Source: Trypanosoma brucei
Taxonomy: Eukaryota
Direction: 5' to 3'
Assembly: GCA_000002445.1 (NCBI GenBank)
Contig: CP000070.1
Location: 1,312,001-1,376,000, forward strand
Length of the DNA stretch: 64,000 bases
In this document: positions 4,208 through 24,813 of the stretch, piece by piece
Layout of the letters: every line of letters begins with the position of its first letter
Numbering within the stretch: the stretch's first letter is position 1
The notes under the pieces: generated by a model
Database searches by the model: none
Told to the model about the DNA's origin: nothing
Seen by the model: only the letters and a program-made list of their open reading frames with translations
Program-made: the position numbers and the translations under genes

Positions 4208-6041
4208 ATGGAGGAGCGACTTAGCTCCACCAACGCTGAGAGAAGTGGTTTTAATCTAGTGGTTACTGCCGCTTTGGATTTCCCCTACTGGCGCCAATTC
4301 TGTTATTTGTGCCAGGTAATGGATAATTTGGGATGAGGGTATTGTTTTAATGTTGATGAGAGGCCGCACATGTTTTTTCCCTCTCGCCAATAGCTTGCAT
4401 TTCCAAAAATTTATTATATACCCTGAAAAATTGGCGGCATTTACCTCAATACACTGCTGCGTTCTGTATCTGGACGGTTGGTGCGTACCCCAGAAAAATA
4501 CGTAGCTCCTTTGAGTTATGTGTGGATGTTGTCCATTTATGCCACTGTTTCCCCTACCTATGTGGGGGGACTTGGTATCTTTGTGTTTTTGCCCATTATG
4601 AGGTAAAGCTATTGACGTGGTTTGCTGCGCACTTTCTGTTAAGTATGTTCGAGCTATCGTGTTCATGCGATCAATTTACGATCCCTATAACGGGTTATAT
4701 ATTGGGTTTCTTAGTTGTTGTTGTTTTTGAAGAAAGCGTGTGTCGGGGACGAGCGGCTGTTACAAACTAGGAGTTAAGACCGTCAGTCGTGTATATTTTT
4801 TGCGGTGCTGAATTCATGTGCCATCACTTACATCTTTTTCGTATGATTAATTTTTTTTTTTTGCCGAATCAGATTATCTGTTTATTGGAGGGTATTGGAG
4901 TGCCTTCGCTTTTGTTTAGCATTTTCCCGATTTCTGTTACTGGTTGGTTGGTCTACCGTTTTCCTGCGTAAATGGCGTAGGCGACGTGCTAACATAATTT
5001 GTGTTTCACTTACTGCGGTGCTGTGGGCAAGAAAAAGACCTACTTATGGACGTGAGCCTTTCGAACTATTGGAAAACAGTGGTTTCACTCAGTAAGGCTG
5101 CATCAGTTTTGCTACTGTCGTACATTTGAGAGTGCTCTCGACGCTTTTCGACCGAATTTTTTTTTAAAAAACTTCGTTGAAGTGTTTTCACGGCCATGCG
5201 CGTATGAATAGTAGGAACATTCGTGTATATATGTGCGAAAGTTTCTGTTTTTTTTGTTGATGATTCAGTCTCTTGACTGACGCCTTACCCTTTTTGGTGT
5301 TGATGTATCATATTAGGCCAGGAAAAGAAGGGGGAGGGGTTCACCAATCTACATTCGTACCGACCATTGCCACTAGAATCCATATGGGTAAATATTTGTA
5401 ATCAACTTTTGAGGAACTAGTACTATATCTTATTTCTCTAGAAGGAGGCTAACTACTGAGTGGGGTGATCCACTTTATAGTTTATAACTCACGGACAAAC
5501 AAACCCGTTCCTATCCTTGATTGAGTTTGGCTTGTTCTACCGGCCCTTATAAACACAAAGCTACTGTTGTCGGAAATTCGTAAAGAAAGCCGACTGTCGT
5601 TTCTTTGCTTTTTCGTTATACGTGGTTGCACTCTTTGTTGATACTTTTGTCAATGTTATCTTATGCATAATGCTAAAGCACGAAATGTACCCTAATTCAA
5701 GTTGTTGTAATGTGTTGCTGGCTTCGACATATTACAGATGAATGCCCCCTTTCTACTATAAGACACCGTTTACCTCCCCCCTGACAACAGTGGAGAGAGT
5801 TTGCCAGATACGCCGCCAGCGGTTAAGTCCGTTGTGGAAATAGCATCAACAGGATGGATGTAGGCGATGATGAGTAAGCGTTAAATCTTCTCATAGACGT
5901 TGTGAGAAACAGTGTCTCACAGTTAAATAAATATTGGCTCGCTGGTGTGGGGACTTCTTGCCACCAGAGCCTGCGTGGGCTGACAATGTTGTCGGGCATT
6001 ACCTTTGAAATATTTCTGTTTAATTTTGAGATATATCATGA

Positions 6042-6070
6042 TTTTTCTTCCCCCCTCCTTTTTTCTTTAG
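6042..6070 (+). promoter_or_regulatory. Polypyrimidine tract plus AG, candidate trans-splice acceptor for the GS gene
   Basis: ttcttcccccctccttttttctttAG ends 36 nt upstream of the first ATG that gives a GS-like N-terminus. This is the usual kinetoplastid pre-mRNA processing context. Confidence 0.4.
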
Positions 6071-6105
6071 CCATTCGCATCGTGATTGCTTGTGGAATTC
6101 CGTCA

Positions 6106-7251
6106 ATGACAAACTCTTCAGTGCAGCAGGTTGGTTGCCGGGTAACATACATATGGCTTTCTGGAAAGGATTCGCATCACGATATTCGCAGCAAGGACAG
6201 AACCATATATATTTCACCTGATGATTTGGAAAAGGACCCCAAAGAGCTTCTCCGTTTGGATATGTTCCCTGTATGGAATTTTGACGGTTCCTCAACAGGT
6301 CAAGCTGAAGGATTAATAACTGAAATTCACATCAAGCCTGTAAATGCGTACCACTGTTGCATTCCCCGTGCTTCCTCTTCAGTACCATGGATAGTTGTAC
6401 TCGCTGAATGCTTTTTACCGACCGGCGAACCCACACCCGATAACTCGCGGGCGGTAGCTCGTCGCATATTTGATAAAGGGCTCGGTACCCATCCATGGTT
6501 TGGGATGGAACAGGAATATTTCTTGGTAAAAGACGGACATCCCTATGGTTGGTGTCCCACTTGTCCCCCCGCGTCCCAGGGACCTTACTACTGCGCAACT
6601 GGCTCTGAATGTATCCGAGGTCGGAAACATGTTGATTTGCATTATGAGGTTTGCCTGCAAATGGGACTCAAGATATGTGGCACAAATGCTGAAGTTGCAT
6701 TTGGACAGTGGGAATTTCAAGTCGGGCCGTGCGAAGGGATCGAAATGGGTGATCAGCTTGTTGTGGCTAGGTGGGTGTTGCTACGAATTTTGGAGCTTGA
6801 AGGGTTGGATGCAGATTTTCGTGCAAAGCCTATTTTGGGCGACTGGAACGGTAGCGGACTTCACACCAACTTCTCAACAGAGGCCACTCGGGCACCGGGT
6901 GGTTTGGAAGTCATTTATCAATATATTGAAAGATTAAAGGAAACTTCGTCCAAGGATATAATTTTTTATGGAGTTGACAATAACGAGCGGTTAATAGGGA
7001 AGCACGAGACCTCAAAATTAAATGAAACAACGTTTGGAATAGGTACACGGGGGACCTCAATTCGAATTCCTACCGCTGTGGCTGCCGCACAAAGTGGTTA
7101 TATGGAGGATCGCCGGCCTGCGGCAGGGGCTGATCCATACTTGGTGTCATCAAGGCTCTTTGCATCATGCCTATCAGTGGACGCCGTTGAACTGGATTTT
7201 TCATCTCCTCGACACGAGCGGGAGTGGATGGCAAGTACTTCTAAGGTGTAG
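6106..7251 (+). CDS. GS: Glutamine synthetase, eukaryotic type II (381 aa)
   Basis: The translation carries GS-II signatures WNFDGSSTGQAEG, HPWFGMEQEYFL, QGPYYC, GTNAEVAFGQWEFQVGPC, NGSGLHTNFST and RIPTAVA...GYMEDRRPAAGADPY. Start is the first ATG (MTNSSVQQ) after the polypyrimidine/AG. The track's longer GTG-initiated extension encodes hydrophobic non-GS sequence. Confidence 0.9.
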   Translation: MTNSSVQQVGCRVTYIWLSGKDSHHDIRSKDRTIYISPDDLEKDPKELLRLDMFPVWNFDGSSTGQAEGLITEIHIKPVNAYHCCIPRASSSVPWIVVLAECFLPTGEPTPDNSRAVARRIFDKGLGTHPWFGMEQEYFLVKDGHPYGWCPTCPPASQGPYYCATGSECIRGRKHVDLHYEVCLQMGLKICGTNAEVAFGQWEFQVGPCEGIEMGDQLVVARWVLLRILELEGLDADFRAKPILGDWNGSGLHTNFSTEATRAPGGLEVIYQYIERLKETSSKDIIFYGVDNNERLIGKHETSKLNETTFGIGTRGTSIRIPTAVAAAQSGYMEDRRPAAGADPYLVSSRLFASCLSVDAVELDFSSPRHEREWMASTSKV

Positions 7252-7804: not shown

Positions 7805-8992
7805 ATGCCTGGTTGCCTTTCGGCGCTGGCGTCGCATGTGGAATCAGCATCTGTGGTCAGTACCAAGTCGAAACGTAAAAGGAAAAGTAAGAAGAAGGCT
7901 TTGTACGACCAATATCTTGCTGACTCAGGCAGCGAAGACTCATCTGAACTGAGCAAAAATGTGAACGGAACTCCAAGCAAGTATGAATATGAAGAATTTG
8001 AACCCGGTATGGATATAAATATTCTCATTCAACAAACTATTCAGAATGTTGTGCAGAGCGTATGTTTAGAAGATTGTGACGGCCTATCACAATTTGGCGA
8101 CAATGATTTAATTTGTTTTAGCGCGGCAGTGAAACATAATAGTTCTATTCTTTCTCTTCAAATCCGGTACCTTGATGTTTCGGATGTGTCACTTGTACCT
8201 CTGTGCCGTGCACTTGAGTGCCATCCTTCTATTCGGGCTCTGGATCTATCGGGGACCAGGGGTGGCCGCCCCTCTGTCAAAGCGGTCTTTCAACTTGTGT
8301 GCACAAATCCTAATATATTGTTTGTTCGCCTGGACGATACGATGGTATCCCCACACGACGCTGAGGATATAAGGGTTGCTACCCTATATAATGCTTTGGC
8401 ATGCCCTGATCCCACTAACAATCCCTTTTATTTAGGGTTGTTGCGAAAAATAAGCGACATAGAAGAGGAAAAGCAGAAATACAAAGAACAGCTATCGGAA
8501 CAGTTGTGGCTTTTTTCAAGTCGACCCCAAAACAATTTAAATTCGGGTAAGGAGAAAAAGGTTGGATTCAGTGAAAAGGTATCAGAGTCTCGAATAGGCG
8601 CTGATGTTTGTGCACAGTTTATGTCTGGGAGGTGTGCATACGGGTCACGGTGCAGGTACATTCACCCTGATAAGACCACCGCACTTAGGAACGCAATTGC
8701 CCTTAGTAAATATAAGATGGCGCAGATGATCGATGACGACGCGAAATCAGTTAAAAGCAGCGCAACTTCCCTTGGACAGACTGGAAGGGGTAGGTTGCAG
8801 AGTAGACTTCGTCCAACGAATTTTACTATGAATAAAGTGCATTGTGCGGTCGCCACTGTGCATGAAGGTTCGGTTGAACAGTGTAGTGCAGGCTCGAACG
8901 AGGAAGCGGCTGACGTAGCTTTGAGGTTGTCCATTTGGACATTTGCTCTTGTTACTGCTGTTTGCAGTGTTGTGCTGATCGTGGTTTACTGA
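7805..8992 (+). CDS. CCCH zinc-finger protein with leucine-rich-repeat-like region and C-terminal hydrophobic anchor (395 aa)
   Basis: ATG start. Single C-x7-C-x5-C-x3-H motif (CAQFMSGRCAYGSRCRYIH). LRR-like LSLQIRYLDVSDVSLVPLCRALECHPSIRALDLSG. The last ~22 residues (LSIWTFALVTAVCSVVLIVVY) are predicted transmembrane. Basic KRKRKSKKK stretch near the N-terminus. Confidence 0.6.
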   Translation: MPGCLSALASHVESASVVSTKSKRKRKSKKKALYDQYLADSGSEDSSELSKNVNGTPSKYEYEEFEPGMDINILIQQTIQNVVQSVCLEDCDGLSQFGDNDLICFSAAVKHNSSILSLQIRYLDVSDVSLVPLCRALECHPSIRALDLSGTRGGRPSVKAVFQLVCTNPNILFVRLDDTMVSPHDAEDIRVATLYNALACPDPTNNPFYLGLLRKISDIEEEKQKYKEQLSEQLWLFSSRPQNNLNSGKEKKVGFSEKVSESRIGADVCAQFMSGRCAYGSRCRYIHPDKTTALRNAIALSKYKMAQMIDDDAKSVKSSATSLGQTGRGRLQSRLRPTNFTMNKVHCAVATVHEGSVEQCSAGSNEEAADVALRLSIWTFALVTAVCSVVLIVVY

Positions 8993-11905: not shown

Positions 11906-12688
11906 ATGGTGTCACTGAAGCTCCAAGCTCGCCTGGCAGCGGACATCCTGCGCTGCGGCCGCGGCCGCGTGTGGTTGGACCCTAACGAAGCAGTAGAGAT
12001 TCGCAATGCCAATTCACGCAAGAGTGTACGCAAGTTGATCAAAGACGGTTTGGTAATGCGAAAGCCTGTTAAGGTGCATTCGCGCTCCCGCTGGCGCCAG
12101 ATGAAGTTGGCGAAGAGCATGGGACGCCACGAGGGTACCGGCCGCCGCGAGGGTACTCGCGAAGCACGCATGCCCAGCAAGGACCTTTGGATGCGCCGAC
12201 TTCGCATTCTTCGCCGTTTGCTTCGCAAGTACCGCGAAGAAAAGAAGATTGATCGGCACATCTACCGCGAGCTGTACATGAAGGCAAAGGGCAACGTGTT
12301 CCGCAACAAGCGCAACCTTATGGAGCACATCCACAAGGTGAAGAACGAGAAGAAGAAGGCTCGTCAGCTTGCTGAGCAACTCGCGGCGAAACGCCTAAAG
12401 GACGAGCAGAACCGCCGCAAGGCACGAAAGCAGGAGCTGAAGAAGCGTGAGAAGGAACGTGAGCGTGCACGCCGTGACGATGCCGCTGCTGCTGCCGCTG
12501 CCAAACAACGAGCTGCCGCGAAGAAGGCTGCCGCTCCCGCTGCCAAGAAGGGTGGCAAGGCTGTTGCCCCCGCCACTCCTGCGAAGGCCGCCCCTGCAAA
12601 GGCCGCCGCTGCGAAGGTTGCCCCAGCGAAGGCGGCTCCCGCAAAGGCCGCCAGCCCTGCCGGGAAGAAGGCAGCGGGTAAGAAGTGA
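11906..12688 (+). CDS. RPL19: 60S ribosomal protein L19e, copy 1 (260 aa)
   Basis: [28 protein letters not shown]...[24 protein letters not shown] is canonical eL19. Ala/Lys/Pro-rich C-terminal tail typical of trypanosomatid L19. ATG start. Confidence 0.95.
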
Positions 12689-13589: not shown

Positions 13590-14372
13590 ATGGTGTCACT
13601 GAAGCTCCAAGCTCGCCTGGCAGCGGACATCCTGCGCTGCGGCCGCGGCCGCGTGTGGTTGGACCCTAACGAAGCAGTAGAGATTCGCAATGCCAATTCA
13701 CGCAAGAGTGTACGCAAGTTGATCAAAGACGGTTTGGTAATGCGAAAGCCTGTTAAGGTGCATTCGCGCTCCCGCTGGCGCCAGATGAAGTTGGCGAAGA
13801 GCATGGGACGCCACGAGGGTACCGGCCGCCGCGAGGGTACTCGCGAAGCACGCATGCCCAGCAAGGACCTTTGGATGCGCCGACTTCGCATTCTTCGCCG
13901 TTTGCTTCGCAAGTACCGCGAAGAAAAGAAGATTGATCGGCACATCTACCGCGAGCTGTACATGAAGGCAAAGGGCAACGTGTTCCGCAACAAGCGCAAC
14001 CTTATGGAGCACATCCACAAGGTGAAGAACGAGAAGAAGAAGGCTCGTCAGCTTGCTGAGCAACTCGCGGCGAAACGCCTAAAGGACGAGCAGAACCGCC
14101 GCAAGGCACGAAAGCAGGAGCTGAAGAAGCGTGAGAAGGAACGTGAGCGTGCACGCCGTGACGATGCCGCTGCTGCTGCCGCTGCCAAACAACGAGCTGC
14201 CGCGAAGAAGGCTGCCGCTCCCGCTGCCAAGAAGGGTGGCAAGGCTGTTGCCCCCGCCACTCCTGCGAAGGCCGCCCCTGCAAAGGCCGCCGCTGCGAAG
14301 GTTGCCCCAGCGAAGGCGGCTCCCGCAAAGGCCGCCAGCCCTGCCGGGAAGAAGGCAGCGGGTAAGAAGTGA
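13590..14372 (+). CDS. RPL19: 60S ribosomal protein L19e, copy 2 (260 aa), identical to copy 1
   Basis: Protein is identical to 11906..12688. The antisense artefact ORFs are also identical, which implies the DNA is identical across the CDS. Period between copies is 1684 bp. Confidence 0.95.
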
Positions 14373-14661
14373 AAGATGACTCCTTTTTTCTTTTGTTAAT
14401 TCTTTTCTAAAGAACTTGCACGTTTTGTGCCCACTATTACCATCATCGTCTATTTCTTATTGTTATTCTGTTTCCATAATGATAACACCCGCTTTGGATC
14501 TTCCCCTGTTTTCAGGCTCATTGCTTTGTTGCGGCGGTTCGCGTGGCCGTTTTCAAGGAATAAATATTTGGCTATATTGTTGATATTAGGGTGAAGCGAC
14601 CATTTATTTGTTACTTTAGAACATTGTCTCTTCTGCTCGGGGCATCGTTTGACAGTTGTCT

Positions 14662-15744
14662 ATGATTCTATCCCTCGACATGAAAAATGCGCCCGATTCA
14701 CGATGTAAGTCATCGGGACACGGCGGTAAATGCCGGAAGGAGGGTAATCTTTCACGATCACAACACGAAAGTGCCACTCACACACCTGTGCGGGCACGTG
14801 GTCCCCGGAGGAGTACTTCTCGGTTAGTAAACGAGCGGTCGCCAAACAGGTGCGGTTGGGCTATAGGTGCTAGTGCGATGGAGGAAACACCGGAGATTCT
14901 GGGTTTGCGCCGCCGGGCTGAGGAGGTTGCTCCAATTTTGGGTGCTAATGTTTGTCAAATCCGTGATCTGTTACTATTACAGCGTGTAGCGATCGAGGTT
15001 GCTGAACGATTCTCCCGTCTGGAGGAGTGGTACGTTGCACAGTTGCGGGAGCGCTCCGAGTACTTGGAGCACCGCGTGACGCAGTTGGCGGAGGCTGCTG
15101 CTTCTCAGACCGCTTATTTAACCTCTGATAAGTCCCGAACACCGACGGCGGTACGTCACCGTCAAGGTTTAACCGGTAGAGCCGCGGGGATGAGTAGGCC
15201 CTCGCTCAGTTTTCGCAGTAGGTCTCCTTCGAGTAACGATGATGCTGGGAGGAGCGGTGGGGCCGCGCCGTCTTCCCCTTTCAAGGTCCAGCATTCAAAG
15301 AATTTAAACAGCTCGCGCATTCGTTTTACAGGGCGTTCTACCGCGTCACTGTTCGCTCTGCACTTTCAACCTCCAACTGTCGAACATAACTATAACAATT
15401 CGGCCGATACTTCTCGGGGGACGGGCCCCAACAGACGTCGGACTATGGATATGTTAGGACCTTGTGGGGGCGCAAGTGCCATGAGGATGAAACTAACGAT
15501 GAAAGACAAGCGAAAGTCACCAAGTTCAGGTTCCCACCAGAGGCGTCCTTCTAAGGGGGGTAGCGAATCCGAGGTGTACGATACCCTGAATGGTAGCAAT
15601 AGCAACAATAAGCAGATTAGTACACGGCGCGCTTGTGGTTCAACTATCTTGCTCTCAGTTTCAGATAGGAAGCACACACCACGTCGTGTGTTGCCCGCTT
15701 CCAGCAGACTGATTTATGCGGTCGATGCGATCGCACGGGAATGA
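14662..15744 (+). CDS. Hypothetical Ser/Arg-rich protein with N-terminal coiled coil (360 aa)
   Basis: Track start is TTG; first ATG at 14662. Helical LRRRAEEVAPILG...VAQLRERSEYLEHRVTQLAEAAA is followed by a long S/R/P-rich low-complexity region (RSRSPSSNDD, KRKSPSSGSHQRRPSKG). Confidence 0.45.
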   Translation: MILSLDMKNAPDSRCKSSGHGGKCRKEGNLSRSQHESATHTPVRARGPRRSTSRLVNERSPNRCGWAIGASAMEETPEILGLRRRAEEVAPILGANVCQIRDLLLLQRVAIEVAERFSRLEEWYVAQLRERSEYLEHRVTQLAEAAASQTAYLTSDKSRTPTAVRHRQGLTGRAAGMSRPSLSFRSRSPSSNDDAGRSGGAAPSSPFKVQHSKNLNSSRIRFTGRSTASLFALHFQPPTVEHNYNNSADTSRGTGPNRRRTMDMLGPCGGASAMRMKLTMKDKRKSPSSGSHQRRPSKGGSESEVYDTLNGSNSNNKQISTRRACGSTILLSVSDRKHTPRRVLPASSRLIYAVDAIARE

Positions 15745-16265: not shown

Positions 16266-18140
16266 ATGGAGCAAACCAGCAAACCCGCTAACCTTCCTCC
16301 CTGTTCACCAAGACAGGCGGTGAAGAATATTCTTAGGGGTGTCGATAGCCACGTTCGGGTTATGTCCCATTTAGATAACGTGTCCACTTCTTCCAGTTAC
16401 TCGGCGGTGCGGCTGAAGAAGCCGAAAACGGATTCTTGGACGGAACCATTTAACGTGACCCGTGTGCATCGAGGTACATCTACGAATAGTTTCTACCAGG
16501 AGGTTATAGCACCGTGCGTGGCAAACTGTTTAGCTGGGCAGAGTTACCTGTTTTTAGTTAGTGGTCCCTGTGAAAGCGGTCGAAGTCAGACCCTCTACGG
16601 CAGTCCACACCATAAAACCAAGGGCGTCGTTGAACTTGCCGCCGAAGACTTGTTGGGCTATATGACCGGTGGTGCTGAGAACAACGATGACAACCCTAGT
16701 AGGGGGCAGCCAACAGTCACCCATTCCGCCTTTGTTACGCGCGGGTCACACATAAACGAAACAAAGACAGGCGAGCCCGTTCCTATTGTGGACTTTCCAC
16801 CTCCGCTGGGTCGCACTGCTCTTCCGCGCATGCAGTTGCTAGAGTCAGCTGCTAGCGTTGTACAAATACCCGAGCACAAGTATTCAGACACTTCTTGTAT
16901 TATTCAGTTTCAGGTTTATGTTCCGGTGGACACCCTAGGACGGCGTTCCATGGCCACACTAACCTTTGTGGACGCTGCAGCATTTCACTCGCAGCCGTGC
17001 AGTGAGGTTCGTCATCTTGTATCTACCGTGCGTCGGGTGGCGGGACTGTCTAACGGCGACGGCCCCAGTTTCGATCAGAGGAAACTGACGACTTTGCTTG
17101 AGCCTGCACTTATGGGTTATGTCACGCTAATGTCCATCACAACCATCAGTGGTCGAGATGACTTACACGAAGCGGCATGTGAAGCTCTGCGCTTCGCTGA
17201 GACCATTAGTCGGATTCATCAGGTTCTTATGTTAGTACACATCAACACGCCCAAGTGGTTCCTAGACACGGCGGAGAAAGTAGAGGTTCTGAGGTCCCAG
17301 CGTAATAAGATGCTGTCTGAACAGCATGCTCGCGGCGTGTATGACTATTACGTGACTGTCACCAAGTGGTTGTCTCAGCATGTGGCCGGCGCCGGTTGTA
17401 CGTTTGATAAATTACTTGAAGAAGTGGAGCAAATTCGTGAAGACCTTGCGTGTGAGATGAAGGAGAGGGTTAAAAGCGTCCAGGCATCTATACAAGAGGC
17501 TGAGAAACAGCACGCTCTTCAACTTGAGCGCACACGCAATGCCCACGCGATAACAACTTCACAATTGGACAAGGTAAAACGCTTAGACGAAACAATAGCC
17601 GCGCTTACTCAGAAGGTGACACAGCGAGATCTGTTCAACGACCACAAAATAAGCGAAATGCGTATCGAAATATCTGCTATTGAAAGCGAAACAGAGACGC
17701 GGAGACAGGAGTTGCTGCGGTTCGAAAATGAGGAGAGGCTGTACGGAACTAAATGCGCGGAGGTGATGGGGGTTCTTGAGAAATATTCAGCAGACCTTGC
17801 TAATTCCCAGATGCACTACGTGCTCACCGAAGAGATGAGTGCCATCGAAGAAAAGAAGAAACGCCTGGAGGCAGATCTTGCAACTGCTTCGCGTATTGCA
17901 CATATGGAGAGTGACAATTTCCGCGCTAATCGAGAGAAGAATTCACGCCTCTCACACCTGTCGGTGATGCAGCAGAAAGTTGACTCCCTTCGGGGACGTA
18001 TCTTAACAAACAGCGTTTCCCATACCATGAGCCGAAGCGCAAGCCACCTTAGCCCGCGTAGTCAGCCTGACGCTTCGCCTTCAGAGTCACCGGCGCAAAA
18101 GCGGCGGCGGTTCGCAAGCCCGCGGTACTCCGCTGTGTAG
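16266..18140 (+). CDS. Kinesin-like protein with degenerate nucleotide-binding motifs (pseudo-kinesin) plus C-terminal coiled coil (624 aa)
   Basis: The segment FNVTRVHRGTSTNSFYQEVIAPCVANCLAGQSYLFLVSGPCESGRSQTLYG aligns with the kinesin FxFDxVF...QxxVY...GYNxTIFAYGQTGSGKT. Here the P-loop is GPCESGRS, switch-I SSRSH is SDTSC, and switch-II LVDLAGSE is LTFVDAAAFH. C-terminal ~250 aa is heptad-rich (coiled coil). Confidence 0.55.
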   Translation: MEQTSKPANLPPCSPRQAVKNILRGVDSHVRVMSHLDNVSTSSSYSAVRLKKPKTDSWTEPFNVTRVHRGTSTNSFYQEVIAPCVANCLAGQSYLFLVSGPCESGRSQTLYGSPHHKTKGVVELAAEDLLGYMTGGAENNDDNPSRGQPTVTHSAFVTRGSHINETKTGEPVPIVDFPPPLGRTALPRMQLLESAASVVQIPEHKYSDTSCIIQFQVYVPVDTLGRRSMATLTFVDAAAFHSQPCSEVRHLVSTVRRVAGLSNGDGPSFDQRKLTTLLEPALMGYVTLMSITTISGRDDLHEAACEALRFAETISRIHQVLMLVHINTPKWFLDTAEKVEVLRSQRNKMLSEQHARGVYDYYVTVTKWLSQHVAGAGCTFDKLLEEVEQIREDLACEMKERVKSVQASIQEAEKQHALQLERTRNAHAITTSQLDKVKRLDETIAALTQKVTQRDLFNDHKISEMRIEISAIESETETRRQELLRFENEERLYGTKCAEVMGVLEKYSADLANSQMHYVLTEEMSAIEEKKKRLEADLATASRIAHMESDNFRANREKNSRLSHLSVMQQKVDSLRGRILTNSVSHTMSRSASHLSPRSQPDASPSESPAQKRRRFASPRYSAV

Positions 18141-18266: not shown

Positions 18267-19170
18267 GAACTAGATCACCTCTCGCTTACGCGGGGAGTGC
18301 TTCGTGCGAAGAGGCGAAAATGGAGAAAAAGGATGCGCTTTTACGACGGGACAGGAGTTGTGGTCACCTCACCAGTGTTTGTTTGTACTATTATGAGAAA
18401 TGTTAGGGGAAATGAAGCAGAAGAGAAGGAAAATGTGGATCGGTAGATGAGACAGAGGTGAACTTAATTACTGTAAGTAGTTACTGGGTTTGTACGCTTA
18501 CTGTGTGTAGGGGAAAAGAGGGGTTTCCGACATTAGGCAGTGTGTGCGCGGTGGCAAGGGCGATTGCCACCTACGCACACGTGCCTCTATCCTTTGTATC
18601 CATACGTTTTAATGTGTCTGCATGGTGGGAGTGTACAGAGGGAGGTTGTTTGTGCCGCACTAACCGCGGCCATTTGTTTGTTCCATTTGTTGGATAGTAT
18701 TTATTTCCGCGGTTACGTAACTTGGGGGTGCATGTGTATGTGCTTCCTTCCCATAAATTGCGCTGTGTTGAACTACCTCCCTGAGTGGGGAAAGTTCTTT
18801 TTTTTGAATATTTCTTTATTTTTGCCAAAACAAAAAAACCTGCTTTATATTTTGACAGCTTGTTGCACTTGCAAGGGTGAAGCACTTGTGCTTTCCGTAC
18901 TTCACGGTAGGGGAAAGTTATAGGCAAAAGAAGCAACGCGGAAGGGGCTATTTTTCTCCCTTCGCGGTGAAGAGAAGGAGGGTAAAGGAGCAAACGGAAA
19001 AGCAGCCAAACTCAGAAGGAAAAAGCTTCAGGAAAGCCGTTGAGGCACGGAAGGTTAAAAAGAAACAACCCTATATTGGGCGGCTCAAGTGTATCTTGTA
19101 GAGGGTTTGGGTATTCACCAAGACTCTTGAGCTCAGTGCAGCGCCGCAGGTAGTGCGTTGGAGAGGGGTA

Positions 19171-22092
19171 ATGCACGACGGGTCGCAGCAAGATGCGTCC
19201 CACGGAGCGACTGCAATGAACAGTGGTGTGGTTCCGGATGGCCAGTGGAGGGTGGATGAAAATATCATTATCCGAGAGATACTTGCAATGAATACACTTG
19301 CCATGCAGAGGTGCGATACGGGGGCACTCGATGAATCAAGTAGTATTCTTACTGATGCCTACATGAAACTGCACAACGATACATCAACCGGTGAATCCCA
19401 GGGGTTAGACGCGGTACGTGCAACGACACTCAACAACCTTGGTGTTGTTGAATGCCACCGCGGGCAGCATCGACAGGCGCTAAGTCATTTCGAAGCCGCA
19501 CGGCAGTTGGAGGAGGCGTGGAGTGCCGCCTCCCCTTCCGTGGCTTTGAACAGCTGTGCTGCATATAATGCACTTGGAATGTATGACAAAGCCACGGCTG
19601 CTGCAATGGAAACTATCAATATGTTGCGCAGGTTGTTTGCCCAACAAGAGTTTCAGGGATCGCCTACCGGTGAAGTTGCTTCTACCCCCGGTGGAAGCTG
19701 TGGCGCACAACCTCAGAGCGATGGGATGAATGTTGCCAGTTCCGACAACGCAGCACTGTGGGGTGCCGCCTGGCACAATTTGGCGGTTGCGCAAATCAAC
19801 ACGGCAAAGAGCAGCACTGATCTGAGTGAGTACACCAATGCTGCGGCTCTGTTCCAGAATGCTATGCGTGCGACGCAAGAGTTGTTAGGGTATGACCATC
19901 CGATGACAAAGAGTGTGACGGAGACATACCGTGCGGTACGCAACGCGCTACGGACGCACGGCGTTTATAAACAACACCACACTCTCTTTACGGCACCTTT
20001 GAGGCCTGCGGACCCGCGTGATGAGGCGGATGATATGGAGCAGTATTTCAAGCAATGTGGCATCAAGTCGAGGAGACGGGCTTTGGAAAAGTATTACCGC
20101 GATTTGACCATCACGTTCTGTGGTGCTGTGACGAATGGAGTGAAACTGACTGAGCGGCTCGATCCCACTCCGTACCCCCTGGCAAAAGATGTGTCATTTC
20201 GCAGGAGTGGTCAAAAGGATTCACTGCGAATGTTGCGAGCAATACCGACGGGGAGCACTATTGAGAAAGCATGTCACCTGTACGGTAATCCACATCCTTT
20301 GCTATTTTCGTTACCGCCTGAGTACCGTGCAAGTGAGGTGGGGACTGCAAAGAGTATCCCAAAAGCTGCATCAGCTAATTCTTTTGCAAAAGTGCCTATG
20401 AAACCCAATGCTCTCGCAAGCTCCAGAAGACCACAACCGAAGCGTGAGCAGATATTTAACGAGGGGCAAAGGAGAATGCAAATTCAGTCGAATATGCCAA
20501 AGCAGCAGCAGCGCCAAATCGGTCCGCCATCGACTGTGGTGAACTATTCACGCGCACTACAGGAAACCCCGGGAGCTGCGCCAACTATTCCTCAGATTAC
20601 CCCTCTGAGTTACAAAGCGAGCATCGATGAGCACTGGCAACCACCAGTTAATCAAACTCCGGCACCTGTGAATTACAACTGGTCCGTTCAACAGCAGGCA
20701 CCAAATACTGTCCCAACGGCTCCGCTTGTTTACCAGCAGGCATCAGTTAATCAAACTCCGGCACCTGTGAATCACAACTGGTCCGTTCAACAGCAGGCAC
20801 CAAATACTGTCCCAACTGCTCCGCTTGTTTACCAACAGACGCCAGTTAATCAGGGTCAAGCACCTTTGAATCACAACTGGTCCGCTCAACAGCAGGCACC
20901 AAACGTTGTTCCAACGGCTCCGCTTGTTTACCAGCAGGCATCAGTTAATCAAACTCCGGCGCCTGTGAATCACAACTGGTCCGTTCAACAGCAGGCACCA
21001 AACACTGTTCCAACTGCTCCGCTTGTTTACCAGCAGGCACCAGTTGATCAAACTCCGGCGCCTGTGAATTACAACTGGTCCGCTCAACAGCAGGCACCAA
21101 ATACTGTTCCAACTGCTCCACTTGTTTACCAACAGGCACCAGTTAGTCAGGGTCAAGCGCCTGCCGTGGCCAGTCAACCCCCCCTGAACCAGATGCCGAA
21201 CGTTTCTCAAGGAGAATCATTTGATCACCAGCAAGGGATGAGTGGACGACAGGAACCTTTGCGCCAGCAAGAACAGCAGATGCTGGCCTCATGCCGCCGG
21301 CAAGCTCCCGCTGACCTTGGCCAGGGAGCTGCAGCCGACCACCGTTCGCATCAGGAGTCGGTCTCTAATAATACCCTGGTAGTTGGTGGACAGGAAGAAA
21401 AAAAGAAGAAGGACCATGTGCAACCTGTTCCCGCTGCACCCGCGGCTGTTCCTGCTGGGCCCGCGGTCGGTGAGGCTTCGAAGCCTGCAGCGGCGGTTCG
21501 AGGGCCCCTTCCACCCCTGAAATCACCACCAGGTGGTCGTGTGATAGCAAAGGCTGAGACATCCGATGGAGTTGAGGGAATCGTTAGTGCGCCACGCAAA
21601 GCTTCGTCCGGAGGGCAAACAGCGACATATGATGCACGGAGAGCCTACGAGCAAATAAAGTACATTCTACTGGCCGACCCACCGGCCGAGGCTTCCCGGA
21701 GAAAATCTAAGCAAGACCGTAGCAAAAAGGATTCTGTGCCTGCAAATGTGCCCCAACAGGAATGTGGCCCCTGGACCGATAACGCAGCACCCGCAGCCGG
21801 GGAGTCACCAACGGAGCATAAGCCTCACCGTCTATTTGATGCTTTATGGGTTTCGGGCGGGGGCCCAGCTGACCAGGCCCCGCTGCGCGTAGTTGGGAAG
21901 CCCAGCTACTTTGTGTCATCCGTCCTTGACATGCGCCAGGGTCAGGCGGAATTCCCTGAGGAGGTGATGCAGATGGTGGCGGAAAATAGTCGTTCCTCTT
22001 GTTCCGATGTGGAGGAAAGACATTCTCAGACGATGGGGCCCGCGCAACACTCATGCACTGAGGCTGGAATACCCACACATGATCAGTCATGA
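19171..22092 (+). CDS. TPR-like protein with Gln/Pro/Asn-rich 33-aa tandem repeats (973 aa)
   Basis: Track start is GTG; first ATG at 19171. The N-terminal third has kinesin-light-chain-like TPR helices (LNNLGVVECHRGQHRQALSHFEAARQLEE; WHNLAVAQINTAKSSTDL...LFQNAMRATQELLGYDHPMT). The middle has five full and one partial copy of VNQTPAPVNxNWSVQQQAPNTVPTAPLVYQQAx. C-terminus is Pro/Ala-rich. Confidence 0.6.
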   Translation: MHDGSQQDASHGATAMNSGVVPDGQWRVDENIIIREILAMNTLAMQRCDTGALDESSSILTDAYMKLHNDTSTGESQGLDAVRATTLNNLGVVECHRGQHRQALSHFEAARQLEEAWSAASPSVALNSCAAYNALGMYDKATAAAMETINMLRRLFAQQEFQGSPTGEVASTPGGSCGAQPQSDGMNVASSDNAALWGAAWHNLAVAQINTAKSSTDLSEYTNAAALFQNAMRATQELLGYDHPMTKSVTETYRAVRNALRTHGVYKQHHTLFTAPLRPADPRDEADDMEQYFKQCGIKSRRRALEKYYRDLTITFCGAVTNGVKLTERLDPTPYPLAKDVSFRRSGQKDSLRMLRAIPTGSTIEKACHLYGNPHPLLFSLPPEYRASEVGTAKSIPKAASANSFAKVPMKPNALASSRRPQPKREQIFNEGQRRMQIQSNMPKQQQRQIGPPSTVVNYSRALQETPGAAPTIPQITPLSYKASIDEHWQPPVNQTPAPVNYNWSVQQQAPNTVPTAPLVYQQASVNQTPAPVNHNWSVQQQAPNTVPTAPLVYQQTPVNQGQAPLNHNWSAQQQAPNVVPTAPLVYQQASVNQTPAPVNHNWSVQQQAPNTVPTAPLVYQQAPVDQTPAPVNYNWSAQQQAPNTVPTAPLVYQQAPVSQGQAPAVASQPPLNQMPNVSQGESFDHQQGMSGRQEPLRQQEQQMLASCRRQAPADLGQGAAADHRSHQESVSNNTLVVGGQEEKKKKDHVQPVPAAPAAVPAGPAVGEASKPAAAVRGPLPPLKSPPGGRVIAKAETSDGVEGIVSAPRKASSGGQTATYDARRAYEQIKYILLADPPAEASRRKSKQDRSKKDSVPANVPQQECGPWTDNAAPAAGESPTEHKPHRLFDALWVSGGGPADQAPLRVVGKPSYFVSSVLDMRQGQAEFPEEVMQMVAENSRSSCSDVEERHSQTMGPAQHSCTEAGIPTHDQS
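20647..21165 (+). repeat. 99-bp in-frame tandem repeat, 5 full and 1 partial copy, inside the CDS
   Basis: gttaatcaaactccggc(a/g)cctgtgaat(t/c)acaactggtcc... recurs at 20647, 20746, 20845, 20944, 21043 and 21142. Period is exactly 99 nt with a few substitutions per copy. Confidence 0.9.
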
Positions 22093-23265: not shown

Positions 23266-24813
23266 ATGACCGGTGGGGAGTTGGATGTGGTTAACCGCAT
23301 TCACAGGGAGCAACGCAACCGAAACGCATTTTGCATGTGGTGGATTGGCATGATTAACAACTTCCACTACTGCTTGGTGCTAAGTGGTTCCCTGAGTCTT
23401 GCTGAGGGATATGGAATGAGACAATACGTTGCACTGATTACGTGGGCGAATGTGTTCTTCGGAATTGTGGCCCGTATTATTAATGCATTGGTTCTCTCAC
23501 TACTGTCGTTCAACATCCGCGTGACAGTAACGTATTTTATGGGGCTGTTGGCAATTTTCTTGGTGAGCTTCGCTTATGACATCGGTGGACACAACAACGT
23601 TGCTGCTTTTGTTGTACTACTCATCGGTGTCGTCTTCATCGGTACTGCGAGTAGCTACGGCGAGTCCGTGTTTCTTGGATATATGGAGCGGTTACCGTCC
23701 AAGCAGGTCGGTGCGTGGTCCTCCGGGACGGGCCTGTCGGGCGTTGCTGCCTCTCTTATTTATCTCGGACTGGCACACGCTGGTTTTTCAAACTCCTCTA
23801 TCTTCCTCATGAGCACACCGTTTCTTGCGATGTACTGGGCATTTTACTTTTTCGGCCTTAAACTGCCCGTTGAAACGCGGGAGGGTGGGTACAAAGCAAT
23901 GGTGAACTGGAAGGGCACGCCGTGGAGGTCCATCACTCCGGTGCCTCATAATAAGATGCCCGAATGTTTGAAGGATATGCGACAGGAACAATGTTTGGCA
24001 ACTGAGGGGTACGAAGATGGCATGTACTCTGAGCAAGACGGAGACGACTCGCACCGGTCGCAAACCTTCAACGAGTATACTTGGCCTATTTTGAAGTCGA
24101 TGCACAAGTTTACATTGTGGAACAACTTCAACCTTGCCAGTGTGTACATTGCGGAGTACGCTGTTCAGTTCATGGCACCTTTCTGTTTCCCTTGCAAGCA
24201 ACTGAAGGAGAGCAAGAGCTTCTGGATAAAGAATGCGTTCGTATTGACACAGTTCTGCTATCAGTTTGGCGTTTTGATTTCTCGCAGCAGTCTTGTGTGC
24301 GTTCGCATTCGGCAGGTGTGGATTTTGACTGTTATTCAAGTGATTAACGCTGTCGCATGGTTTGTGGAAGCAAAGGTACACTTCCTGGAGGACCCCGACG
24401 ATGAGAAGCGGCAGCTTACATTCACTTTCATTTTGTTTGCGTGGATGGTTTTTGTGGGGCTTTTGGGTGGGGCCTCTTATGTGAATGTCTTCTACAACAT
24501 ACTTGAGGAGACGAAGGAGGCTCAGAATGCTGAGATTGCTGAATTCGTTGCTTGGCGCGGGAGGAAGAGGGCACCTGGGCTATCAAGTGAGCGCGTTTTT
24601 AACGATACAGAGTTTGGGGAGCCTTTGGGTTCAGAAGAGGAGGAAGCCACCATTATACGAGACTGTGTTGCTCACATTACCGCCGAGTGGAAGACAAAGC
24701 GTGACATGGCCATGAACATCGGTGCCCTTTACGTTACTGTTGGCATCACGCTTGGATCCCTCCTTGATCTCTTTTTTACGGTGGTCGTACTGCGCGGTGG
24801 TGGTTGCAGTTAG
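23266..24813 (+). CDS. CLN3: CLN3/battenin-family multi-pass membrane protein (515 aa)
   Basis: Several collinear blocks match human CLN3. [18 protein letters not shown] matches [62 protein letters not shown] matches [62 protein letters not shown] matches [37 protein letters not shown] matches GLLGGAAYVNTFHNIALET. Multiple hydrophobic spans. Confidence 0.85.
   Translation: [515 protein letters not shown]

What the first reader, a model, noticed from the sequence alone, without database searches (positions are those of the whole stretch)
16266..18140. Kinesin-motor-like domain with all three nucleotide-binding motifs mutated (candidate pseudo-kinesin)
Residues ~70-250 align collinearly with the kinesin motor core (FxFDxVF, QxxVY, GYNxTIFAYG, KTYTMxG, SSRSHAIF-like, LxLVDLAGSE-like). 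The P-loop reads GPCESGRS instead of GQTGSGKT. Switch I reads SDTSC instead of SSRSH. Switch II reads DAAAFH instead of DLAGSE. A ~250-aa coiled coil follows. If the fold assignment is right, this protein cannot hydrolyse ATP. It might act as a scaffold, a microtubule binder, or a heterodimer partner of an active kinesin.
Basis: partly seen in the sequence, partly recalled or inferred. Interest (0 to 1): 0.5.

Follow-up and report, generated by a model that had tools for sequence, protein, structure and literature searches.

The report
Known dead kinesin KIN-B of trypanosomes

Summary

Li et al. 2008 noted the missing P-loop lysine and SSRSH motif. Ballmer & Akiyoshi 2024 showed that the KIN-B head does not bind microtubules. 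They also showed that KIN-B's coiled coil pairs with the active kinesin KIN-A to form the scaffold and localisation module of the chromosomal passenger complex.

- The fourth nucleotide motif (RxRP) is lost too.
- The Walker-A skeleton GxxxxG[K>R][T>S] survives.
- The dead head is more conserved than the coiled coil, and its degenerate pocket motifs are its most conserved blocks.

The function of the head is therefore still unexplained. Verdict: confirmed, already known, low interest.

The parts
16266..18140 (+). Complete KIN-B coding sequence (624 codons plus stop), Tb927.7.5040
   Evidence: ORF list. Exact-sequence look-up gives XP_846127.1 / AAZ12568.1 / UniProt KINB_TRYB2, 'Orphan kinesin KIN-B'. 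Li et al. 2008 give the gene ID.
16266..16340 (+). N-terminal extension, aa 1-25, predicted disordered and poorly conserved
   Evidence: pLDDT below 50 for aa 1-24. Mean column conservation is 0.55.
16341..17213 (+). Degenerate kinesin motor-like head ('pseudo-motor'), aa 26-316
16563..16586 (+). P-loop (N1) remnant GPCESGRS, aa 100-107. The Walker-A lysine is replaced by Arg106.
   Evidence: Translation. Aligned to CENP-E GQTASGKT and KIF5B GQTSSGKT. P101, S104, G105, R106 and S107 are invariant in 28 orthologues.
16884..16898 (+). Switch I (N2) remnant SDTSC, aa 207-211, immediately before the strand at aa 210-219
   Evidence: Translation. Collinear with KIF5B SSRSH, with the register uncertain by one residue. 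An acidic residue at 208 and S210-C211 are found in all 28 orthologues.
16971..16988 (+). Switch II (N3) remnant DAAAFH, aa 236-241. The Asp is kept, Gly becomes Ala239, and Glu becomes His241 (Arg in most orthologues).
   Evidence: Translation. Aligned to Kip3 DLAGSE and KIF5B DLAGSE. D236 and A238 are invariant. A 14-aa deletion in L11 follows.
17214..17261 (+). Conserved neck-like segment IHQVLMLVHINTPKWF, aa 317-332, in the position of a kinesin neck linker
   Evidence: AF2 predicts a strand at aa 320-326 directly after helix alpha-6. Q319, V320, L323, H325, P329 and W331 are invariant. This is the most conserved region, 0.79.
17262..18002 (+). Long alpha-helical coiled-coil region, aa 333-579. 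In the literature it is the KIN-A pairing and INCENP/CPC2 docking surface.
   Evidence: AF2 predicts helices at aa 330-372 and 377-579, with block-mean pLDDT mostly 82-90 between about aa 390 and 540. It has no Pro and is 33% charged. A published AF2 model and BS3 crosslinks show a parallel KIN-A:KIN-B coiled coil over KIN-B residues about 320-580 (PMC10987093).
18003..18137 (+). Disordered Ser/Pro/Arg-rich C-terminal tail, aa 580-624
   Evidence: pLDDT below 50. Conservation is 0.30.

Best explanation
The gene encodes KIN-B, the non-catalytic kinesin-like subunit of the kinetoplastid chromosomal passenger complex (CPC).

Its N-terminal 316 residues keep the kinesin alpha/beta motor fold. They have lost the residues needed to hydrolyse ATP:
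- Walker-A Lys is Arg.
- SSRSH is SDTSC.
- DLAGSE is DAAAFH, which includes the classic 'rigor' Gly-to-Ala change.
- RxRP is absent.

Loop L11, ahead of the alpha-4 tubulin-binding helix, is also shortened by 14 residues. The head is therefore neither an ATPase nor a microtubule binder.

The C-terminal helix of about 250 residues forms a parallel coiled coil with the active kinesin KIN-A. This heterodimer is the scaffold onto which the N-terminal helices of INCENP(CPC1) and CPC2 dock, bringing in Aurora B(AUK1). KIN-A supplies the kinetochore tether through its C-terminal tail, which binds the KKT8 complex. It also supplies the ATP-driven transfer to the central spindle. KIN-B supplies dimerisation, stability and docking surface.

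Shown here: identity, fold, motif degeneration, helix, and the conservation pattern.
Shown in the literature: complex membership, essentiality, heterodimer crosslinks, and the lack of microtubule binding.
Inferred: that the strongly conserved dead head has its own role, most plausibly as a docking or regulatory surface for the Aurora B-INCENP module or for the KIN-A head.
For: Identity and homology:
- The sequence is identical to KINB_TRYB2.
- Orthologues were found only in kinetoplastids, at 35-69% identity.
- PF00225 hits above its cut-off.

Fold:
- Foldseek E 2e-20, TM 0.70-0.78, with all top 50 hits kinesin motors.

Motifs and architecture:
- Motif placement is supported, and the motifs are invariant across orthologues.
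- Helices at aa 330-372 and 377-579.

Literature:
- Li et al. [quoted passage not shown]
- Ballmer & Akiyoshi 2024 (PMC10987093): KIN-B(2-316) does not go to the spindle or kinetochores and does not co-sediment with microtubules. KIN-B(317-624) localises to kinetochores. KIN-A and KIN-B depend on each other for localisation, and KIN-B protein levels depend on KIN-A. Crosslinks support a parallel coiled coil, and the INCENP N-terminus contacts mainly KIN-B next to the heads.

Conservation:
- The head is more conserved than the coil in 18 of 18 orthologues.
- The pocket motifs score 0.86 against 0.72 for the rest of the head. Only 189 of 20,000 random block placements reach that value.
Against: - No ATPase or nucleotide-binding assay of KIN-B was found in the papers read, so 'cannot hydrolyse ATP' remains a sequence inference.
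- The retained GxxxxGRS skeleton and the switch II Asp leave nucleotide binding formally possible.
- Li et al. 2008 mention unpublished data that KIN-B associates with microtubules. This conflicts with the 2024 co-sedimentation result for the isolated head, although it could be indirect, through KIN-A.
- The high conservation of the pocket motifs may simply reflect their position next to buried core strands (beta-3, beta-6, beta-7). It may not indicate a surviving functional site.
- The role of the head itself is stated to be unclear by the authors.
Confidence: 0.93

Rival explanations
1. KIN-B is a weak or unconventional but still active NTPase. The conserved GxxxxGRS loop and the switch II Asp would still bind, and slowly turn over, a nucleotide, so KIN-B would contribute a second working head to the KIN-A:KIN-B dimer.
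For: The Walker-A skeleton is retained and invariant in 28 orthologues, as is D236. The pocket blocks are the most conserved parts of the head. Li et al. 2008 mention unpublished microtubule association.
Against: All four kinesin nucleotide motifs deviate at catalytic positions: Lys to Arg, loss of the switch I Arg, the gamma-phosphate-sensing Gly to Ala, Glu to His/Arg, and RxRP lost. From established kinesin enzymology, the Gly-to-Ala change alone gives a rigor, ATPase-dead motor; the same change was used to inactivate KIN-A. L11 is shortened by 14 residues. The isolated head does not bind microtubules in vitro or localise to the spindle in vivo.
Confidence: 0.04
2. The head is a decaying relic with no function of its own. 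Only the coiled coil matters, and the head is kept merely because it folds and stabilises the protein.
For: KIN-B(317-624) alone localises to kinetochores, whereas the head alone goes to the nucleolus. The head is not phosphorylated by Aurora B. The authors call KIN-B's role unclear.
Against: A relic should drift. Instead the head is 50-80% identical across kinetoplastids and more conserved than the coiled coil in all 18 comparisons, with dozens of invariant residues, including surface loops such as FPPPLG (aa 177-182) and the neck segment. INCENP crosslinks and Aurora B yeast two-hybrid contacts map to KIN-B near the heads.
Confidence: 0.12
3. The resemblance to kinesin is spurious: a chance motif match in a generic P-loop NTPase or Rossmann-like fold.
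For: Sequence identity to kinesins is only 13-20%. The single-sequence Pfam match covers mainly profile positions 24-116 of 327. hhalign against a single KIF5B sequence gave a low probability.
Confidence: 0.01

Closest known systems
Trypanosoma brucei KIN-B (Tb927.7.5040; UniProt KINB_TRYB2), subunit of the kinetoplastid chromosomal passenger complex
   Same: It is this protein: all 624 residues are identical. The architecture matches the published one, with an inactive motor at aa 2-316 and a coiled coil at aa 317-624.
   Different: Nothing differs. The window DNA differs by 0.6% from a related Trypanozoon assembly, but the protein equals the TREU927 entry.
Kar3-Vik1 / Kar3-Cik1 (yeast kinesin-14 paired with a non-catalytic motor-homology-domain partner)
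MKLP2/KIF20A-dependent transport of the CPC in animals
   Same: [quoted passage not shown]
   Different: MKLP2 is a transient, active partner that meets a Borealin/Survivin-containing CPC. In kinetoplastids the kinesin pair is a constitutive subunit and replaces Borealin and Survivin as the localisation module. KIN-B is the inactive half.
CENP-E / kinesin-7 family
   Same: CENP-E is the best sequence match among solved structures, both for the single sequence (E = 0.0011) and for the orthologue profile (E = 3.1e-8). A published phylogeny nests KIN-A and KIN-B in the CENP-E clade (PMC11633173).
   Different: Support for the placement of KIN-B is weak (bootstrap 54/100, long branch). CENP-E is an active plus-end-directed motor with intact motifs.
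Other motility-impaired kinesins such as KIF7/Costal2 and NOD
   Different: From my own knowledge, not tested here: those proteins retain nucleotide-binding motifs and microtubule binding. KIN-B has lost both.

Membership tests
Kinesin superfamily (homology: Pfam PF00225 motor domain) | Significant match to the PF00225 profile at or above the curated gathering score | tested here: met
   34.9 bits against a cut-off of 29.3, E = 1.1e-8. Nearly all full-length orthologues also carry precomputed PF00225 hits; several fragments and the two longest homologues (P0028, P0030) do not.
Kinesin superfamily (homology: Pfam PF00225 motor domain) | Kinesin alpha/beta motor fold (central sheet flanked by helices, alpha-4/alpha-5/alpha-6 order) | tested here: met
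   [not shown]
Catalytically competent kinesin motor | P-loop GQTxxGK[ST] with the Walker-A lysine | tested here: not met
   The sequence is GPCESGRS. Lys is replaced by Arg106, invariant in 28 orthologues.
Catalytically competent kinesin motor | Switch I SSRSH, with the Arg that bridges to switch II | tested here: not met
   The sequence is (Y)SDTSC. The Arg position is D208 or T209, depending on the register.
Catalytically competent kinesin motor | Switch II DxxGxE, with the gamma-phosphate-sensing Gly and the catalytic Glu | tested here: not met
   The sequence is DAAAFH (family consensus DVAAFR). Gly is Ala239 and Glu is His/Arg241.
Catalytically competent kinesin motor | RxRP adenine-binding motif (N4) | tested here: not met
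   KIF5B 'VMCRFRP' aligns to KIN-B 'VMSHL--' with a gap.
Catalytically competent kinesin motor | Microtubule binding and microtubule-stimulated ATPase activity | not testable with these tools
   Literature: KIN-B(2-316) does not co-sediment with microtubules or localise to the spindle (PMC10987093). No ATPase assay was found. L11 is 14 residues shorter than in KIF5B.
KIN-B orthologous group / kinetoplastid CPC subunit | Sequence identity or orthology to T. brucei KIN-B | tested here: met
   Exact match to XP_846127.1 / KINB_TRYB2. Orthologues are present across Trypanosoma, Leishmania, Leptomonas, Phytomonas, Angomonas, Strigomonas and other kinetoplastids.
KIN-B orthologous group / kinetoplastid CPC subunit | C-terminal coiled coil that heterodimerises with KIN-A and docks INCENP/CPC2 | tested here: inconclusive
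   A long helix at aa 330-579 is predicted with good confidence. Pairing with KIN-A was not modelled here. It rests on published AF2 models and crosslinking.
Kinesin-7 (CENP-E) family | Robust phylogenetic placement within the family | tested here: inconclusive
   CENP-E is the top PDB sequence hit, but by a modest margin. The published tree gives bootstrap 54/100 for KIN-B. No tree was built here.
Vik1/Cik1-type motor-homology-domain partners | C-terminal motor-homology domain lacking any P-loop, which binds microtubules and partners a kinesin-14 | tested here: not met
   [not shown]

The most novel reading that the evidence does not exclude
The degenerate nucleotide pocket of KIN-B is not a ruin but a repurposed, selectively maintained site.

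The Walker-A skeleton (GPxESGRS), an acidic residue at position 208 and a basic residue at position 241 are kept across kinetoplastids. In the MAFFT register, the canonical switch I Arg / switch II Glu salt bridge would be charge-swapped, to Asp/Glu208 and Arg/His/Lys241.

This could lock the head permanently in one 'closed' conformation, or let it bind a nucleotide or phosphate without turnover. The head would then be a fixed-state partner that gates the KIN-A head, or a docking platform that holds the Aurora B-INCENP catalytic module until KIN-A engages microtubules.
Probability: 0.2. Interest if true: 0.45.

Novelty: already known. Interest (0 to 1): 0.15.

Why it matters
KIN-B is half of the module that replaces Borealin and Survivin in kinetoplastids. 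It positions the essential Aurora B kinase in a group of major human and livestock pathogens, so the protein is biologically important and is discussed as part of a potential drug-target pathway.

All of that is already in the literature (2008, 2024), and the scan finding adds nothing to it. The only open point is why a head that neither hydrolyses ATP nor binds microtubules is more conserved than the coiled coil that performs the known function. An answer would say something general about how dead motor domains are reused, in the way pseudokinases have been shown to be.

Tried and rejected
- **hhalign of the orthologue profile against a single KIF5B sequence.** It aligned only aa 58-136, with a meaningless probability (3.4%). 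A one-sequence template is too weak, so I used hmmsearch against PDB, MAFFT and structure instead.
- **Gene neighbourhood.** The neighbours are glutamine synthetase, a CCCH zinc finger, two RPL19e copies, a TPR protein and CLN3. All lie on one strand of a trypanosome polycistronic unit, so they carry no functional information.
- **Resolving the switch I register, or testing the proposed D208-H/R241 charge-swapped bridge.** Neither was possible, because model coordinates are not exposed. Variation among the orthologues is too small for a covariation test.
- **A literature search for an established 'pseudokinesin' class.** It found essentially nothing: one incidental use of the term.
- **Searches not run.** I did not use the exhaustive representative-protein search or the metagenome and genome locus scans. 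Identity and distribution were already settled and by published phylogenies.
- **Readings considered and rejected.** I rejected a chance motif match and a generic P-loop NTPase fold on the evidence.

Full report
**Observation.** The window carries an ATG-initiated ORF of 624 codons at 16266..18140 on the + strand. All real-looking ORFs of 200 aa or more in the window are on the same strand and lack introns, at about 50% G+C. This is typical of a trypanosomatid polycistronic unit.
- GPCESGRS, aa 100-107, nt 16563-16586
- SDTSC, aa 207-211, nt 16884-16898
- DAAAFH, aa 236-241, nt 16971-16988

**Identity.** An exact-sequence look-up finds this protein as XP_846127.1 / AAZ12568.1 of Trypanosoma brucei brucei TREU927, UniProt KINB_TRYB2, "Orphan kinesin KIN-B". 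Li et al. 2008 give the gene ID as Tb927.7.5040 (PMC2396291). A related Trypanozoon assembly (GCA_001457755.2) carries the same gene with the same neighbours, and its DNA is 99.4% identical to the window. Homologues were found only in kinetoplastids (Trypanosoma, Leishmania, Leptomonas, Porcisia, Novymonas, Phytomonas, Angomonas, Strigomonas and unnamed assemblies), at 35-69% identity.

- Pfam PF00225 matches with E = 1.1e-8 and 34.9 bits, above the curated cut-off of 29.3.
- phmmer against PDB sequences finds CENP-E, Ncd, KIF22 and kinesin-1 weakly. It finds them in two collinear pieces: the beta-1 to alpha-2 region, and alpha-5/beta-8/alpha-6.
- A profile of 19 orthologues raises CENP-E to E = 3.1e-8. 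It aligns 'LvsgPveSGRSqtlYGs' to CENP-E 'FAYGQTASGKTYTMMGS', and 'atltFvDvAaf' to Kip3 'ATLSIIDLAGSE'.
- An AlphaFold2 model of aa 1-335, built on 28 orthologues, has mean pLDDT 75 and pTM 0.78.
- Foldseek against the PDB returns only kinesin motor domains in the top 50 (E 2e-20 to 3e-18, TM 0.65-0.78, 13-18% identity).

The fold assignment is therefore secure.

**Motif degeneration.** MAFFT then aligns KIN-B collinearly along the whole motor.
- P-loop: GQTSSGKT becomes GPCESGRS. The Walker-A skeleton GxxxxG is kept, Lys becomes Arg106, and Thr becomes Ser107.
- Switch I: SSRSH becomes (Y)SDTSC.
- Switch II: DLAGSE becomes DAAAFH. The Asp is kept. The gamma-phosphate-sensing Gly becomes Ala239, which is the same change used experimentally to make KIN-A a rigor mutant. 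Glu becomes His241, or Arg in 25 of 28 orthologues.
- The RxRP adenine-binding motif is absent.
- There are deletions of 8 and 5 residues around alpha-3/L9, and of 14 residues in L11 just before alpha-4, the main tubulin-binding element.

All four nucleotide motifs are therefore degenerate, not only three, and part of the microtubule interface is trimmed.

**Rest of the protein.**
- A full-length AlphaFold2 model shows a short strand at aa 320-326 directly after alpha-6, in the position of a kinesin neck linker.
- Helices follow at aa 330-372 and 377-579, with block-mean pLDDT mostly 82-90 between about aa 390 and 540.
- The tail at aa 580-624 is disordered.
- Residues 333-579 contain no proline and are 33% charged.

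**What it does (literature on this exact protein).**

Li et al. 2008 (PMC2396291):
- They purified KIN-B with the Aurora B homologue AUK1, KIN-A, CPC1 and CPC2.
- They found yeast two-hybrid contacts of KIN-B with AUK1, CPC1 and CPC2.
[quoted passage not shown] Ballmer & Akiyoshi 2024 (PMC10987093):
- They depend on each other for localisation, and KIN-B levels depend on KIN-A.
- Aurora B and INCENP are delocalised when either is depleted.
- KIN-B(317-624) goes to kinetochores. KIN-B(2-316) goes to the nucleolus, does not decorate the spindle and does not co-sediment with microtubules.
- AF2 models and BS3 crosslinks support a parallel KIN-A:KIN-B coiled coil (KIN-B residues about 320-580). 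It carries the N-terminal helices of INCENP and CPC2 close to the heads.
- The KIN-A tail binds the KKT8 complex, and KIN-A ATPase activity is needed for transfer to the central spindle.
- The authors state that the role of KIN-B in motility is unclear, and suggest that KIN-A works as a single-headed unit.

Other papers:
- A later phylogeny nests KIN-A (bootstrap 96) and KIN-B (bootstrap 54, long branch) within the CENP-E clade (PMC11633173). This agrees with CENP-E being my best PDB sequence hit.
- Aurora B does not phosphorylate the KIN-B head in vitro (PMC11354203).

Conservation was quantified on the 19-sequence alignment.
- The dead head (aa 26-316) is more conserved than the coiled coil in all 18 pairwise comparisons. 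For example, the figures are 61% against 40% for Leishmania, and 51% against 18% for the most distant homologue.
- The neck segment (aa 317-332) is the best-conserved region, at 0.79.
- Within the head, the three degenerate pocket motifs are more conserved than the rest (0.86 against 0.72). Only 189 of 20,000 random placements of equal-sized blocks reach that value, and Mann-Whitney gives p = 1.3e-4.

Two cautions apply. These motifs flank buried core strands, so structural constraint alone may explain the result. The orthologues are also phylogenetically related. Even so, the pattern argues against a decaying relic and leaves the function of the head as the one real open question. A speculative reading is that the canonical switch I Arg / switch II Glu salt bridge is charge-swapped: an acidic residue at position 208 in 28 of 28 orthologues, and a basic residue at position 241 in 27 of 28.

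**Comparison with known systems.**
- As a member: it is KIN-B itself. It belongs to the kinesin superfamily by homology and fold, but fails every catalytic-motif criterion of an active motor.
- As a mechanism: it works like the Kar3-Vik1/Cik1 arrangement, in which an active kinesin is joined by a coiled coil to a partner with a non-catalytic kinesin-fold head. It is not a member of that family. The domain is N-terminal, it is structurally closer to true kinesins, it retains a Walker-A-like loop, and it does not bind microtubules.
- Functionally, the KIN-A:KIN-B pair parallels MKLP2-driven CPC transport in animals. The difference is that it is a constitutive subunit, and it replaces Borealin and Survivin.

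**Verdict.** However, the protein, its motif degeneration and its role as the inactive partner of an active kinesin in the CPC scaffold were published in 2008 and 2024. Novelty: already known. Interest is low (0.15). The residual interest lies in the unexplained strong conservation of the dead head.

Noticed in passing
window 11906-12688 and 13590-14372 (+): There are two tandem copies of a ribosomal protein L19e gene (260 aa each), identical at 783 of 783 nucleotides. Each has a 15-nt x5 repeat (CCTGCGAAGGCCGCC) near its 3' end, at 12578-12652 and 14262-14336, encoding an Ala/Lys/Pro-rich C-terminal extension. Perfect identity suggests recent duplication or gene conversion.
   Followed up: partly
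window 19153-22092 (+), repeats at 20642-21149 (extending to about 21233): The gene immediately downstream of KIN-B encodes a protein of about 940-980 aa. It has an N-terminal TPR region (PF13424, E = 1e-9) and an in-frame 99-nt tandem repeat of about 5 copies (89% matches). The repeat encodes 33-aa Pro/Gln-rich units of the form '...PVNQTPAPVNHNWSVQQQAPNTVPTAPLVYQQ...'. Its function is unknown.
   Followed up: partly
window 14656-15744 (+): The gene upstream of KIN-B (about 360 aa; also called as a 360-aa gene in locus L001) has no Pfam match. It is Ser/Arg-rich with a short predicted helical stretch, and is an uncharacterised kinetoplastid protein.
   Followed up: no
window 5902-7251, 7805-8992, 23266-24813 (+): Other neighbours are a glutamine synthetase, a CCCH zinc-finger protein and a CLN3/battenin homologue (PF02487, E = 8e-52). 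All lie on the same strand, consistent with one polycistronic transcription unit. None is functionally linked to KIN-B.
   Followed up: partly
KIN-B aa 177-182 (window 16794-16811) and aa 317-332 (window 17214-17261): Two non-catalytic segments of the dead head are nearly invariant across kinetoplastids: the loop FPPPLG, and the neck-like IHQVLMLVHINTPKWF (Q319, V320, L323, H325, P329 and W331 invariant). Neither has a counterpart motif in canonical kinesins. They are candidate interfaces for KIN-A, INCENP or Aurora B.
   Followed up: partly
[not shown]
   Followed up: no
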